From Candidatus Moraniibacteriota bacterium (GTDB lineage Bacteria; Patescibacteriota; Minisyncoccia; JAHIHE01; JAGLIN01), in the NCBI GenBank assembly GCA_030638895.1, contig DAOWDS010000027.1:1-51368 (forward strand): DNA of 51,368 nt, given 5' to 3'. The position numbers and the translations under genes are program-made. Position 1 is the first letter of the stretch; each line of letters starts with the position of its first letter. Below are positions 45,300 through 47,636 of the stretch, in pieces. Below the pieces are notes generated by a model. That model searched no databases. It was given only the letters and a program-made list of their open reading frames with translations, and was not told the origin of the DNA.

Positions 45300-47636
45300 A
45301 TGATTTTAAAAGACATTACAAAAAAAATACCAAGAATTTTCTTTTCATTTCTTTTTGTTTTTCTAGTGCCTTTTTTTGTTTTGCCGATTAATGATGCTTT
45401 TGCTCTTTGCACAAAAGTCAATCCAACTGTGGAGTTTATTCCCATTGTGGGTGGTGATACAGTTTCTGGAGATATAGGAAATCCATTTAATTATACAATT
45501 CGAGTTACAAATACTGATACTGACGACGGATTTGTTCCTTTGTGTGGACCTTTTGTAAGATATGATTTTTCAATAGCCCCAATTGCTGTTGGCTTGAATT
45601 TGGAATCTCACTCGCTTCCATTAGCTGTCAATGTTTTTACTGGTGCTTCTACAAATACTCCATTTACAGTAACTTCAAAATTGGCAGGGTTAGTTCCTGG
45701 TAATTACAATTTTATTGTAACTGCAACAGACAGCATGGACATCACTAAAACTGCTTCTGTTGGTGGTACATATAATATAGTTTGTATTAATAAGGATCCA
45801 ATAGTAACAATTACACCTAATTCTCTATCAGGACTTGCTGGTCAGGCACAGACTTATGTGATAAGTGTTAAAAATGATGATAGCGTTGCTTGCGCTGATA
45901 GAACTTTTACATTATCTCTTAGCGGATTAACTCCTTGTGTTCCCGGGTGGACCGATGACCTTGAAGTTAATACTGGTTCTTTAGACGGTCAAGAAACATA
46001 CACAAAAAATGTAGTTATTTCTTCTTGCGCTAGTAGTGTCCCAGGTACTAATACTTTTACAATATCCGCAATAGAGGGAGCAAATTCTGGAAATGATTTG
46101 GCAGATTTTGTTATAACTGTAACTCCTACTGAGAATTGTGCTGTTGTAGGTGATGAAGATGGTGACGGTGATTCAGATTGTCTTGATTCAGATTGTCTTG
46201 GAGTTGCTCCTTGCTGTGGAGACGGTTTAGTGACTGGGTCTGAGGCTTGTGATATTAGTGGAAATTTGGGTTGTGTTGGATCAGAAATTTGTGCAGGTTG
46301 TTTTAGCTGTGTAGGTTCAAGTACGGCTGGAGAATGTCCGGTTGGATTTGATGATTGTGATTGTGATGGAGTTTGTGAGATGGACGTTTCCTCAGATCCG
46401 CTTAATTGTGGCAAGTGTGGAAATGTTTGCCCAGGTAATTATTGTAATAGTGGTTCTTGTGTTCCAGTGACTGGAGGGTTTGTTCCTTGCGGTAGAATGT
46501 ATGACAATTCAAACACTATTTGGAATGAGCAAGAATCTTGTAAAATATGCCACATAGTTCCGCTTATAGATAGTGTAATAGAATATTTGCTTGGAATCGT
46601 AGCGCTTATAACCGTTCTGTCCATAGTGATAGGGGGCGTACTTTATGTTTCTTCTGCCGGTGACGCAAGTAGGGTAACAATCGCAAAAACAGCTGTTATA
46701 AAATCTTTATATGGCTTTGTTTTTGTTTTAGTAGCATGGGTTGTTGTAAATATTGGTATGGTAATCTTTGGATTTGATGATCCATTTGGAGATGGAAGCT
46801 GGGCAAAATTTAATTGTGATTTTATTACTTCCCCAATTAATCATTATTGCGGAGATGGTTTAGTTGACAATCCTAATAGTGACGGAATGGTTGAAATGTG
46901 TGATCCAAAAGAAACAAAAATTGATTTTATTGCAAGAACTGGTCTTAGTGCAGAGGATTGGGTTGAAACAATTTATGCTTGTAATCCAACAAACTGTGAT
47001 TCTGGATGTGCGCTTGATCCTCTTGTTGGTCAAATTGGTGAAGGATGTTATCAGCCAAATTTATCAGGTGGAGGACTTGGGACTCCTTGTCAAAAAGGAA
47101 GGTATATTTGTGATTTCGATACAGATACGGTTATTTGCCAAAATACATATAATGATGCAAGCTATAGACTTGCTGGAAGTTATTGTGTTGATATATATGA
47201 TGAATGTTGCGTTGATGGTGGAGCTGCACTTCCAACAATGACATTTGATATTATTAGACTCCCTACTACAAATATAACATCTTGTGTTGATTGGGATTGT
47301 TATTGGCCAGGACATCAAGATGGTATTTGCACTTGTCCCGCAGGATATTCTTGTGATGATATTTGTAAAAATAATGGCGGAAAAGTTTGTGTCGGCGTCG
47401 GTTTAATGGATGTATCAGCCTATCATTGCATTAGCCTTAAAGATAATTTTGGTACTGCTTCTTGTTCAGGAGATCATCAATGTAATAATTCTGCAAATCT
47501 TCTCACAAACGATTGTAGAGCTGAATTTTATACTACAATATGGACTTGTGATGAATGCTCCGATGTTTCTCCAATAGATGGAATACCTGAGGCGTATGAT
47601 TTTAGTGTTGGTGAAACCGCTTGTTATTGTATGTAA
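45300..47636 (+). CDS. large cysteine-rich surface protein containing an internal CPR-type two-helix pilin (TrbC/VirB2-like) core
   Basis: A signal peptide is followed by beta-rich CARDB/DUF11-like repeats and a CCGDGLVTGSEACD-type Cys repeat. The pilin core is FVPCG...CKICH, TM1, SSAGD loop, TM2 (LVAWVVVN), WAKFNC. A second YCGDGLVDNP...CD repeat and a Cys-dense C-terminal domain follow. Confidence 0.7.
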   Translation: MILKDITKKIPRIFFSFLFVFLVPFFVLPINDAFALCTKVNPTVEFIPIVGGDTVSGDIGNPFNYTIRVTNTDTDDGFVPLCGPFVRYDFSIAPIAVGLNLESHSLPLAVNVFTGASTNTPFTVTSKLAGLVPGNYNFIVTATDSMDITKTASVGGTYNIVCINKDPIVTITPNSLSGLAGQAQTYVISVKNDDSVACADRTFTLSLSGLTPCVPGWTDDLEVNTGSLDGQETYTKNVVISSCASSVPGTNTFTISAIEGANSGNDLADFVITVTPTENCAVVGDEDGDGDSDCLDSDCLGVAPCCGDGLVTGSEACDISGNLGCVGSEICAGCFSCVGSSTAGECPVGFDDCDCDGVCEMDVSSDPLNCGKCGNVCPGNYCNSGSCVPVTGGFVPCGRMYDNSNTIWNEQESCKICHIVPLIDSVIEYLLGIVALITVLSIVIGGVLYVSSAGDASRVTIAKTAVIKSLYGFVFVLVAWVVVNIGMVIFGFDDPFGDGSWAKFNCDFITSPINHYCGDGLVDNPNSDGMVEMCDPKETKIDFIARTGLSAEDWVETIYACNPTNCDSGCALDPLVGQIGEGCYQPNLSGGGLGTPCQKGRYICDFDTDTVICQNTYNDASYRLAGSYCVDIYDECCVDGGAALPTMTFDIIRLPTTNITSCVDWDCYWPGHQDGICTCPAGYSCDDICKNNGGKVCVGVGLMDVSAYHCISLKDNFGTASCSGDHQCNNSANLLTNDCRAEFYTTIWTCDECSDVSPIDGIPEAYDFSVGETACYCM

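What the first reader, a model, noticed from the sequence alone, without database searches (positions are those of the whole stretch)
45300..47636. CPR-type pilin hairpin buried inside a 778-aa cysteine-rich surface protein
Residues ~390-500 read FVPCGRMYDN...CKICHIVPLIDSVIEYLLGIVALITVLSIVIGGVLYVSSAGDASRVTIAKTAVIKSLYGFVFVLVAWVVVNIGMVIFGF...WAKFNC. This reproduces the pattern of the short two-helix TrbC/VirB2-like 'pilin' proteins common in CPR bacteria: VPCG, CxxC, TM1, small polar loop, TM2 with AW..N, then W..F.C. Those proteins are normally ~100-150 aa with the core right after the signal peptide.

Here several hundred residues are inserted N-terminal to the core. They comprise CARDB/DUF11-like beta repeats (NPFNYTIRVTNTDTDD, QAQTYVISVKNDDSVAC, TNTFTISAIEG) and a 'CCGDGLVTGSEACD' Myxococcus-type cysteine repeat. 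A second 'YCGDGLVDNP..MCD' repeat and a very Cys-dense domain are appended C-terminally.

The hairpin topology would place both large domains outside the cell. That suggests a pilin scaffold re-used as a membrane tether, or as a polymerising stalk for adhesin-like domains. No VirB4/VirD4-type ATPase is in the window.
Basis: partly seen in the sequence, partly recalled or inferred. Interest (0 to 1): 0.75.

Follow-up and report, generated by a model that had tools for sequence, protein, structure and literature searches.

The report
Pilin-hairpin-anchored cysteine-rich CPR surface protein
A 778-residue secreted protein of an ultra-small (Patescibacteria/CPR) bacterium carries a genuine conjugative-pilin-like two-helix membrane hairpin in mid-chain, flanked by large cysteine-rich outer domains; it belongs to a conserved, undescribed family that always sits next to a calcium-binding partner gene and never next to secretion-machine genes.

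Summary
ORF 45300-47636 (+) encodes 778 aa, and residues 420-484 match Pfam PF18895 (T4SS_pilin) above the curated cut-off.

It is not an assembly chimera. At least 63 homologues from independent CPR assemblies keep the unit "pilin core + about 270-aa Cys-rich C-terminal domain". That C-terminal domain has no Pfam, NCBIfam, PDB or BFVD match. The N-terminal Ig-like domains and a Cys module are later additions specific to some lineages.

Sequence features indicate an N-out/C-out topology. These are a signal peptide, two helices of about 34 residues, a K-rich loop, and 56 Cys that all lie outside the signal peptide, helices and loop.

In 11 of 11 distinct loci a membrane-anchored TSP3 (Ca-binding) partner gene lies directly downstream. 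In the closer lineages the pair sits between LemA and an HtpX-like M48 peptidase, and other pilin-core fusion proteins occupy the same island. No T4SS gene lies within 10 kb in nine annotated homologue contexts, and none is in the window.

Canonical relatives are short: the best 120 hits of a general core profile are all 115-225 aa. Among the nearest 150 relatives of this particular core, however, 124 carry large extensions or tandem cores.

Best reading: the pilin hairpin has been re-used as the anchor or assembly module of a surface complex. Whether it polymerises is unresolved. The CARDB and TIGR02232 assignments are not supported at HMM level.

The parts
45300..47636 (+). Whole ORF, 778 aa: signal peptide, 2 Ig-like domains, Cys modules, PF18895 pilin core, novel Cys-rich C-terminal domain
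45300..45407 (+). Signal peptide (aa 1-36): n-region KK..R, h-region aa 13-31, AFA|L cleavage-type site
   Evidence: hydropathy. The N-terminus is conserved across homologues. The cleavage site is inferred from the -3/-1 rule.
45408..46154 (+). Two tandem Ig/FnIII-like beta-sandwich domains (aa 37-160 and 161-285); variable or absent in homologues
   Evidence: AF2 strands, with pLDDT up to about 88 for aa 160-275. Foldseek hits are tandem Ig/FnIII proteins such as RbmA, ASH domains and integrin calf domains. DUF11/PKD HMMs are sub-threshold only. Absent in the 450-aa members.
46155..46466 (+). Cys-rich linker with a CGDG..E.CD module (aa 286-339) and a conserved Cys module 'ECPxGxDDCDCDGxCE..NCGxCGNVC..C.NGSC' (aa 340-389)
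   Evidence: alignment A1. The module HMM is found only in the close subfamily. No Pfam or NCBIfam hit.
46467..46823 (+). VirB2-like pilin core (aa 390-508): ecto segment GGxVPCGR..C..CH, TM1, K-rich loop, TM2 (AW..VN), ecto tail DDPxGDGSWxKFxC
   Evidence: PF18895 at 33.7 and 38.9 bits. 16,801 relatives. Invariant columns. Most conserved part of the protein.
46566..46655 (+). TM helix 1 (aa ~423-452)
46656..46703 (+). Short cytoplasmic loop (aa 453-468) with invariant K463 and K468
46704..46775 (+). TM helix 2 (aa ~469-492), invariant G472 F473 W480 N484
46824..47633 (+). Family-defining C-terminal Cys-rich alpha/beta domain (aa 509-778, 27 Cys), starting with a second CGDG..E.CD module
   Evidence: Profile A3 finds 46 proteins, essentially all with the pilin core immediately upstream. 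AF2 blocks reach pLDDT above 90 for aa ~537-657. No Pfam, NCBIfam, PDB-sequence, PDB-fold or BFVD match.
47658..49055 (+). Conserved partner gene: TM-anchored protein with a Cys-paired helical region and TSP3 Ca-binding repeats
   Evidence: PF18884. Orthologous partner directly downstream in 11 of 11 distinct loci.
49124..50449 (+). Tandem paralogue of the TSP3 partner (300 nt at 89% identity to the first copy)
44525..45082 (+). LemA family gene, upstream boundary of the island
   Evidence: PF04011. LemA lies directly upstream of pilin-core genes in 12 distinct loci including the window.
50531..51368 (+). HtpX-like M48 peptidase (HELSH motif), cut off by the window end; downstream boundary of the island
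   Evidence: translations. Orthologues (E about 1e-140 to 1e-160) follow the pilin cassette in 12 distinct loci including the window.
44250..44274 (+). Terminator-like hairpin after groEL; no convincing one between lemA and the M48 gene, so an operon is possible
   Evidence: consensus scan only

Best explanation
The gene encodes a Sec-exported, disulfide-rich cell-surface protein of a Patescibacteria (Parcubacteria/Paceibacteria-type) bacterium.

Its only membrane-embedded element is a VirB2-like (PF18895) helical hairpin lying mid-chain. After signal-peptide cleavage the chain adopts an N-out/C-out topology. Two Ig-like domains plus Cys modules on the N side, and a novel 270-aa Cys-rich domain on the C side, are displayed outside this monoderm cell. 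The short K-rich loop stays in the cytoplasm.

Four invariant Cys flank the hairpin on the outside (VPC, C..C, W..F.C). They probably staple its two outer ends together. This is inferred.

The protein probably works with the co-transcribed, membrane-anchored Ca-binding TSP3-repeat partner as a surface complex for adhesion or as an envelope scaffold. The pair is part of a variable island of pilin-core fusion proteins bounded by LemA and an HtpX-like M48 protease.

The pilin hairpin serves here as the anchoring or oligomerising module and has been uncoupled from a T4SS locus.

Shown: family membership of the core, conserved architecture, gene linkage, and absence of nearby T4SS genes. Inferred: topology, disulfides, complex formation with the partner, and an adhesive or scaffold role.
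For: - **Core identity.** PF18895 scores above the gathering threshold.
- **Topology features.** Two helices of about 34 residues are predicted. The loop is K/R-rich, and all 56 Cys lie outside the signal peptide, TM helices and loop, 28 on each side. The C-terminal part is strongly acidic, with 43 D/E against 12 K/R.
- **Conserved architecture.** It is kept in 22 close and 46 wider homologues.
- **Partner gene.** A TSP3 partner lies 0-40 bp downstream in 11 of 11 distinct loci, even where all other neighbours differ. The partners are orthologous, with 11 invariant Cys.
- **Island.** LemA and M48 flank pilin-core genes in many loci, including loci with other ectodomains such as NHL propeller and LVIVD.
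- **No T4SS linkage.** No T4SS component lies in the window or within +-10 kb in nine annotated homologue contexts.
- **Extracellular fusion partners in relatives.** Among 95 extended relatives the fused domains are typical extracellular binding or enzyme folds: beta-helix, NHL, Kelch, PKD and disaggregatase-related.
Against: - The hairpin and its juxtamembrane ecto segments are the most conserved part of the family. Mean pairwise identity is 0.66-0.73, against 0.39-0.53 for the C-terminal domain. That is more than a passive lipid anchor needs and hints at a specific protein-protein role, such as polymerisation or docking to a machine.
- The rest of the genome is unseen, so a T4SS encoded elsewhere cannot be excluded. 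In the published survey, only 1,135 of 1,948 CPR assemblies with VirB2-like pilins had the pilin gene near virB4.
- Topology, disulfides and partner binding are not experimentally or computationally demonstrated. No TMHMM/SignalP, model coordinates or multimer model were available.
- No functional annotation exists for the C-terminal domain.
Confidence: 0.6

Rival explanations
1. It is a real T4SS pilus subunit. A VirB4-dependent machine encoded elsewhere extracts the hairpin from the membrane and polymerises it, most plausibly as a minor or tip subunit among short pilins. The Ig-like and Cys-rich domains would then be displayed on a pilus as adhesins. This would supply the 'missing adhesin' of CPR T4SSs.
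For: - The core is a bona fide PF18895 member with all invariant residues of the short pilins.
- The core, not the ectodomains, is the most conserved region.
- The helices are about 34 residues long, longer than a bilayer needs, as in conjugative pilins. The top PDB fold hit is the Aeropyrum conjugative pilin 8dfu, but it is not significant (E 1.3, TM 0.65 normalised to the target).
- In known conjugative pili both pilin termini face outward (established knowledge of F/T-pilus structures), so terminal fusions are topologically compatible.
- VirB2-like pilins are essential in Southlakia epibionticum, and no PrgB-like adhesin was found in CPR.
- Extended and short cores are interspersed in a distance tree.
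- In L015 a short pilin-core ORF lies directly upstream of the family gene.
Against: - No T4SS gene is near the gene in the window or in nine homologue contexts. The conserved neighbours are a TSP3 protein, LemA and an M48 protease instead.
- About 350 aa on the N side and 270 aa on the C side of every subunit would not fit a homopolymeric VirB2-type helical lattice. This is a geometric inference, by analogy with size limits on phage pVIII display.
- No pilus has yet been seen for any CPR T4SS.
Confidence: 0.22
2. The protein is a precursor. Signal peptidase and/or the neighbouring M48 protease cleave off the flanking domains, releasing a normal-sized mature pilin and perhaps soluble Cys-rich domains. 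This would be analogous to removal of the long leader and the C-terminal processing of TraA, TrbC and VirB2.
For: - Canonical pilins end 0-4 residues after the W.KF.C motif, exactly where the C-terminal domain starts.
- The linker aa ~491-532 is predicted disordered (pLDDT 30-55).
- An HtpX-like M48 membrane protease is a conserved neighbour.
- Propilin processing at both ends is established for TrbC (general knowledge).
Against: - The ectodomains are conserved and confidently folded (pLDDT above 90 over large parts), and they have their own conserved partner gene.
- LemA/M48 are absent next to the distant family members, which still keep the fusion.
- No conserved cleavage motif was identified.
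- A 350-aa 'leader' is unprecedented.
Confidence: 0.08
3. The pilin similarity is spurious (a generic hydrophobic hairpin), or the ORF is an assembly or frameshift chimera of three genes.
For: - Hydrophobic hairpins give weak HMM and fold hits easily. The PDB sequence searches returned only LolC and Ninjurin noise.
- The full-length AF2 model is poor (pLDDT 55).
Against: - PF18895 scores above its curated threshold.
- The match extends into non-hydrophobic motifs (GGxVPCGR, C..C, DP.G..W....C) that are invariant across thousands of proteins.
- The same domain order is found in more than 60 proteins from independent assemblies and sources.
- The reading frame is uninterrupted, and composition in the two 2-kb windows spanning the ORF (GC 0.34 and 0.35) matches the neighbouring windows.
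Confidence: 0.02

Closest known systems
CPR/Patescibacteria VirB2-like pilins (Pfam PF18895 T4SS_pilin), e.g. the essential pilin array of Southlakia epibionticum ML1 and the arrays described by Quinonero-Coronel et al. 2025
   Same: It has the same core. The HMM match is above threshold. It shares the GGxVPCGR / C..C / TM1 / K-loop / TM2 (W..N) / W....C pattern and the signal-peptide-dependent export.
   Different: - Canonical members are 115-225 aa, often lie in arrays of 2-11 genes, and are often near virB4.
- This protein is 778 aa with its core at aa 390-508.
- It carries a family-specific 270-aa C-terminal domain plus N-terminal Ig-like domains.
- It is linked to TSP3, LemA and M48 genes, not to T4SS genes.
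Classical conjugative pilins TrbC/VirB2/TraA (PF04956 and relatives) and the archaeal Ced/Aeropyrum conjugative pilin (PDB 8dfu)
   Same: It is a helical hairpin with a short basic loop and both ends outside. The best PDB fold hit is 8dfu, but it is not significant. A few close relatives cross-hit PF04956: 4 of 95, and P0301.
   Different: - This protein has no PF04956 hit, even at E<=10.
- Four conserved ecto-Cys take the place of head-to-tail cyclisation.
- It has large fused domains.
- It has no adjacent T4SS.
Two-domain or 'large' pilus adhesins: FimH-type tip adhesins, type IV minor pilins with extra domains, and Gram-positive conjugation adhesins such as PrgB
   Same: It shares the functional logic of binding-type domains attached to a pilin-type assembly module. 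Ig-like domains are typical of such adhesins.
   Different: There is no homology, the assembly systems are different, and polymerisation of this protein is not shown.
Dedicated surface-protein anchor or sorting modules (LPXTG, PEP-CTERM, PGF-CTERM and similar)
   Same: One conserved hydrophobic module is attached to many unrelated extracellular domains: beta-helix, NHL, Kelch and PKD in 95 relatives. That is how anchor or sorting tags behave.
   Different: - Here the module is a 119-aa two-helix hairpin with a Cys-stapled ecto cap, not a short single-helix tag.
- In this family it is internal, not terminal.
- No cognate sortase-like enzyme has been identified. M48 is only a neighbour.

Membership tests
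PF18895 T4SS_pilin (CPR VirB2-like pilins) | Profile-HMM match at or above the curated gathering score | tested here: met
   33.7 bits for the whole protein and 38.9 bits for the isolated core, against a gathering score of 26.6
PF18895 T4SS_pilin (CPR VirB2-like pilins) | Two long hydrophobic helices joined by a short basic loop, preceded by a signal peptide | tested here: met
   Hydropathy and charge counts. AF2 helices 416-450 and 456-489.
PF18895 T4SS_pilin (CPR VirB2-like pilins) | Conserved ecto motifs: PC, C..C, G, G, W (TM2), W....C | tested here: met
   All invariant columns of alignments A6 and A7 are present in the query
PF18895 T4SS_pilin (CPR VirB2-like pilins) | Small protein (about 115-225 aa) with the core directly after the signal peptide | tested here: not met
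   The protein is 778 aa with its core at aa 390-508. The best 120 hits of a general core profile are all 115-225 aa.
PF18895 T4SS_pilin (CPR VirB2-like pilins) | Encoded in or near a T4SS cluster (virB4, virB6, virB3/prgI, trsD) | tested here: not met
   None in the 51-kb window, nor within +-10 kb in nine homologue contexts. The rest of the genome was not seen.
PF18895 T4SS_pilin (CPR VirB2-like pilins) | Polymerises into an extracellular pilus | not testable with these tools
   This needs cryo-ET, immunolabelling or multimer modelling. It has not been shown for any CPR pilin.
TrbC/VirB2 (PF04956) | Profile-HMM match | tested here: not met
   No hit even at E<=10. Only 4 of 95 relatives reach E of about 2e-4.
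CARDB / DUF11 repeat (PF07705, TIGR01451) | Profile-HMM match at threshold | tested here: not met
   TIGR01451 scores 16.3 bits against a cut-off of 24, and only for aa 58-75. No CARDB hit. Only the generic Ig-like fold is supported.
Myxococcus cysteine-rich repeat (TIGR02232) | Profile-HMM match | tested here: not met
   No NCBIfam hit at E<=10 for the whole protein, the Cys module, the C-terminal domain, or homologues P0020 and P0021, which have N-terminal CGDG modules. The resemblance is limited to the CGDG..E.CD motif.
New family: pilin core + Cys-rich C-terminal domain with TSP3 partner | C-terminal domain profile match directly after the pilin core | tested here: met
   302 bits, E 2.5e-91, for the query. 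63 database members carry both the core and the C-terminal domain.
New family: pilin core + Cys-rich C-terminal domain with TSP3 partner | Orthologous TM-anchored Cys/TSP3 partner gene directly downstream | tested here: met
   Window 47658-49055, and 11 of 11 distinct loci

The most novel reading that the evidence does not exclude
PF18895 hairpins may be a modular 'handle'. The CPR T4SS, or another extraction machine, would pull fusion proteins out of the membrane by this handle and mount them on or at the tip of a VirB2-type pilus.

The many pilin-core fusions would then be an exchangeable repertoire of host-recognition adhesins. That repertoire would include this Cys-rich family and its Ca-binding partner, as well as the beta-helix, NHL, Kelch and PKD fusions. 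They would be kept in a variable LemA...M48 island. This would make them the missing adhesins that decide which host an epibiotic CPR cell can attach to.
Probability: 0.18. Interest if true: 0.85.

Novelty: new variant of a known kind. Interest (0 to 1): 0.6.

Why it matters
CPR/Patescibacteria live attached to host cells. Their T4SS and its VirB2-like pilins are essential in the one genetically tractable species. Yet no pilus has been seen, and no adhesin has been identified for this system.

The present analysis shows that the pilin core is not confined to small stand-alone pilins. It is also the conserved membrane module of many large surface proteins with binding-type ectodomains. This family is one well-defined example, with a new Cys-rich domain and an obligate Ca-binding partner gene.

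That gives concrete candidates for host-attachment or envelope-scaffold proteins. It also gives a testable question: are pilin fusions polymerised, or is the hairpin a re-purposed anchor? Finally, it marks a genomic hot-spot (LemA...M48) where such proteins vary between lineages.

It also warns that counting PF18895 hits as 'pilins' in genome surveys mixes two different kinds of protein.

Tried and rejected
- **PDB sequence searches.** The whole protein, the core profile and the C-terminal profile gave only noise (KIAA0319L PKD at E 0.04; LolC and Ninjurin at E above 1) or nothing.
- **Fold searches.** Foldseek of the core plus C-terminal model against PDB and BFVD gave no hit at E<=1e-3. The full-length model matched only generic tandem Ig-like proteins.
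- **Family scans of sub-regions.** Pfam and NCBIfam scans found no CARDB, no TIGR02232, and nothing for the Cys module or the C-terminal domain.
- **Locus search with A4.** The search for related loci failed with the broad alignment A4 because it has no conserved stretch. It was repeated with A1.
- **Supplement search.** Carrier assemblies were looked for in the supplements of the CPR T4SS survey, to learn whether they encode virB4. No occurrences were found.
- **Literature searches.** Searches for PF18895/T4SS_pilin fusions, Cys-rich CPR pilins and a LemA-HtpX link found no description of this architecture.
- **Heme binding.** Heme-c binding by the invariant CKICH (CxxCH) motif was considered. 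It was rejected as a general property because the His is replaced in many short pilins (sequences), and because CPR generally lack cytochrome c maturation (own knowledge).
- **Single ancestral 'anchor' clade.** A single clade of extended forms was considered. It was rejected because extended and short cores are interspersed in a distance tree.
- **M48 seed error.** An M48 seed translated in the wrong frame gave fragmentary hits. This was corrected.
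Full report
**1. The observation**

Pfam finds one significant family. PF18895 (T4SS_pilin) matches aa 420-484 at 33.7 bits against a gathering score of 26.6. 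The excised core scores 38.9 bits. NCBIfam gives only sub-threshold hits: Mbov_0395 pilin-like at 22.6 against 40, and the DUF11 repeat at 16.3 against 24.

Hydropathy shows three hydrophobic segments. These are a signal-peptide h-region (aa 13-31, followed by AFA|L), TM1 at about 423-452 and TM2 at about 469-492. The 16-residue loop between the two TM helices holds 3 K/R. The 56 Cys split 28 and 28 on either side of the hairpin, and none lies in the signal peptide, helices or loop. AlphaFold predicts two helices of about 34 residues.

The window is ordinary chromosomal DNA of a low-GC bacterium. It carries recA, ftsK, rpoBC, a glycogen synthase, uvrA, groES/EL and others, and no VirB4/VirD4.

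**2. Not a chimera, but a family**

A search with the whole protein gave 22 homologues of 453-873 aa. Where named, they come from Patescibacteria, Parcubacteria or Minisyncoccia assemblies, and most were already tagged PF18895.

The alignment shows that the region from about aa 340 to the C-terminus is shared by all of them. The N-terminal part, aa 37-285, is variable or absent.

A profile of the C-terminal domain alone (aa 509-778) finds 46 proteins. Apart from a few likely fragments, every one carries the pilin core immediately upstream. That includes distant members of 300-550 aa in which the core follows the signal peptide directly, and which lack the 'ECP..DDCDCDG..NCGxCG' module and the Ig-like domains.

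So the ancestral unit is signal peptide, pilin core and Cys-rich C-terminal domain. The N-terminal modules are later additions. With the proteins fetched later, 63 carry both the core and the C-terminal domain.

**3. What the parts are**

*N-terminal part.* AlphaFold predicts two beta-sandwiches, with pLDDT up to about 88 for aa 160-275. Foldseek matches tandem Ig/FnIII-like proteins such as RbmA, ASH domains and integrin calf domains. No CARDB or DUF11 model reaches threshold.

*Cys modules and C-terminal domain.* Neither has any Pfam or NCBIfam hit, including TIGR02232. The resemblance to the Myxococcus repeat is limited to the motif CGDG..E.CD. This motif does recur as a small mobile module. 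The start of the C-terminal domain profile also matches the N-terminus of P0021.

*Model of aa 388-778.* Modelled with a 45-sequence alignment, this region reaches pLDDT 78 and pTM 0.62, with blocks above 90 for aa ~537-657. It still has no significant match in PDB or BFVD, and no PDB sequence match. The top PDB fold hit, which is not significant, is to the hairpin: the Aeropyrum pernix conjugative pilin 8dfu, at E 1.3 and TM 0.65 normalised to the target.

**4. How unusual is the architecture?**

A profile of this family's core (A2) against 1.84 billion representatives finds 16,801 proteins at E<=1e-3. The best 150 divide as follows:

| Architecture | Count |
|---|---|
| Long N-terminal extension, core at the very C-terminus | 77 |
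| Extensions on both sides | 20 |
| C-terminal extension only | 19 |
| 3-8 tandem cores in one polypeptide | 8 |
| Short | 26 |

Canonical proteins end 0-4 residues after W.KF.C, exactly where the C-terminal domain of this family begins.

Of 95 extended relatives outside this family, 88 hit PF18895 and 4 hit PF04956 TrbC. Their other domains are extracellular types: right-handed beta-helix (10), NHL/Vgb_lyase-like propeller (7), disaggregatase-related (5), PKD and Kelch.

By contrast, a general core profile (A7) returns 465 proteins, and the best 120 are all 115-225 aa. NCBI names several of them 'pilin'. Extended forms are nevertheless a sizeable sub-population and dominate the neighbourhood of this core. 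In a distance tree, extended and short cores are interspersed in several pure clades, so fusion happened repeatedly. The true fraction of fusions among all 16,801 hits is not known.

**5. Genomic context**

Context was taken from look-ups of homologues and from 13 loci in GTDB species representatives. Nearly all carry CPR titles. One short contig is labelled Rikenellaceae and one record simply 'bacterium'.

An HMM census over all loci shows the following:

- Every distinct locus with a family member (11 of 11) has an orthologous gene 0-40 bp downstream.
- That gene encodes a TM-anchored protein with a Cys-paired helical region (11 invariant Cys) and TSP3 Ca-binding repeats.
- This holds even where all other neighbours differ (L007, L009).
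- The window has two tandem copies of the partner.
- In the closer lineages LemA lies directly upstream, and an HtpX-like M48 peptidase follows the cassette. The window's copy starts at 50531 and runs off the end.
- The same LemA...M48 frame holds other pilin-core fusion proteins in L016-L020 and L022, for example NHL-propeller and LVIVD proteins of 570-1040 aa.
- No T4SS component appears in the window or within +-10 kb in nine annotated contexts.
- A terminator-like hairpin follows groEL. None that is convincing lies between lemA and the M48 gene.

**6. Mechanism**

The best-supported reading is a surface protein whose pilin-type hairpin is the membrane module. Both large Cys-rich parts face outward, and the protein probably acts together with its Ca-binding partner (confidence about 0.6). 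Topology, disulfide stapling of the hairpin ends by the four invariant ecto-Cys, partner binding, and an adhesive or scaffold role are all inferences.

One observation argues against a purely passive anchor. The juxtamembrane ecto segments and TM2 are the most conserved parts of the family, at 0.66-0.73 mean pairwise identity against 0.39-0.53 for the C-terminal domain. This keeps alive the rival that the hairpin still engages a pilin-handling machine and is incorporated as a minor or tip subunit (about 0.2).

A homopolymer seems sterically implausible; this is inference. A precursor model, with the ectodomains cleaved off perhaps by M48, is possible but disfavoured (about 0.08). The domains are conserved, well folded and have their own partner gene, and distant members lack the M48 neighbour. 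Chimera or spurious similarity is effectively excluded.

**7. Comparison with the literature**

VirB2-like pilins of CPR are known. PF18895/PF04956-type proteins occur in 1,948 assemblies, in arrays of 2-11 genes, and lie near virB4 in 1,135 of those assemblies. They are essential in Southlakia epibionticum. No pilus has been demonstrated and no PrgB-like adhesin has been found.

None of the papers retrievable here mentions large pilin fusions, this Cys-rich domain, the TSP3 partner or the LemA...M48 island. This literature check is limited to the open-access library.

**8. Verdict**

The feature is real and conserved. It is a new variant of a known kind: a PF18895 pilin core embedded in a multi-domain surface protein that defines an unannotated family. 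Interest is moderate to high (0.6). The architecture and linkage are solid and bear on an open question, namely how CPR cells attach and what their 'pilins' do. Function remains inferred.

Noticed in passing
window 44525-51368; loci L001, L003, L005, L013, L015-L020, L022: LemA and an HtpX-like M48 peptidase bracket a variable cassette of pilin-core proteins. Depending on the lineage, the cassette holds this family plus its TSP3 partner, or 570-1040-aa proteins with NHL-propeller or LVIVD domains. It looks like a hot-spot for surface-protein diversification. A functional role for LemA/M48, such as processing or quality control, is unexplained.
   Followed up: partly
proteins P0091, P0099, P0138, P0147, P0148, P0171, P0178, P0202: Single polypeptides of 350-820 aa contain 3-8 tandem PF18895-like cores and almost no Cys. 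They look like fused versions of the pilin gene arrays described in CPR. It is hard to see how they could act as separate pilus subunits unless they are cleaved.
   Followed up: no
window 47658-49055 and 49124-50449: These are two tandem paralogues of the TSP3 partner gene. They share a 300-nt stretch at 89% identity (48561-48860 and 49808-50107), although the proteins are only 55% identical overall. This suggests recent partial gene conversion. Most other loci have a single partner directly downstream, and some carry a further short TSP3-repeat gene nearby.
   Followed up: partly
L005/L006/L012, about 12476-12729 in L005 (+): Two short overlapping ORFs match consecutive parts of the pilin core (profile positions about 48-89 and 88-118). 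This is a frameshifted remnant of a second pilin-core gene just downstream of the TSP3 partner.
   Followed up: no
L003 15075-16124; L009 1-1812; L013 8975-10960; L015 9185-9592: Further pilin-core genes lie next to family members. They are a 349-aa and a 604-aa protein with N-terminal extensions, a 662-aa NHL-type protein, and a 136-aa short pilin-like ORF directly upstream of the family gene in L015.
   Followed up: partly
window 46539-46553 (aa 414-418, CKICH): The pre-TM motif is a CxxCH, the classical heme-c attachment motif. The His is invariant in the 23-member family but replaced in many short pilins. Heme binding seems unlikely but was not tested.
   Followed up: no
window 16892-18688 (-): A 598-aa protein matches PF05693 (Glycogen_syn, the eukaryote-type GT3 glycogen synthase family) at 505 bits. 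This is an uncommon family for bacteria.
   Followed up: no
window 1654-2694 (+): A 346-aa protein has a CAP (cysteine-rich secretory protein family, PF00188) domain. It is another secreted Cys-containing protein in the same genome stretch.
   Followed up: no
window 40616-41674 (+); L001 4456-5541; L003 4916-6106: A conserved gene of about 350-400 aa lies between uvrA and groES, with only a marginal nucleotidyltransferase (NTP_transf_2) hit. Its function is unknown. Its position is syntenic in at least three genomes.
   Followed up: no
L014 (CAYLJE010000232.1) and L015/L022 record titles: Contigs carrying this CPR-specific family are labelled 'uncultured Rikenellaceae' (a 2.6-kb contig) or 'Candidatus Saccharibacteria' in public MAGs. 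This probably reflects binning or classification errors.
   Followed up: no
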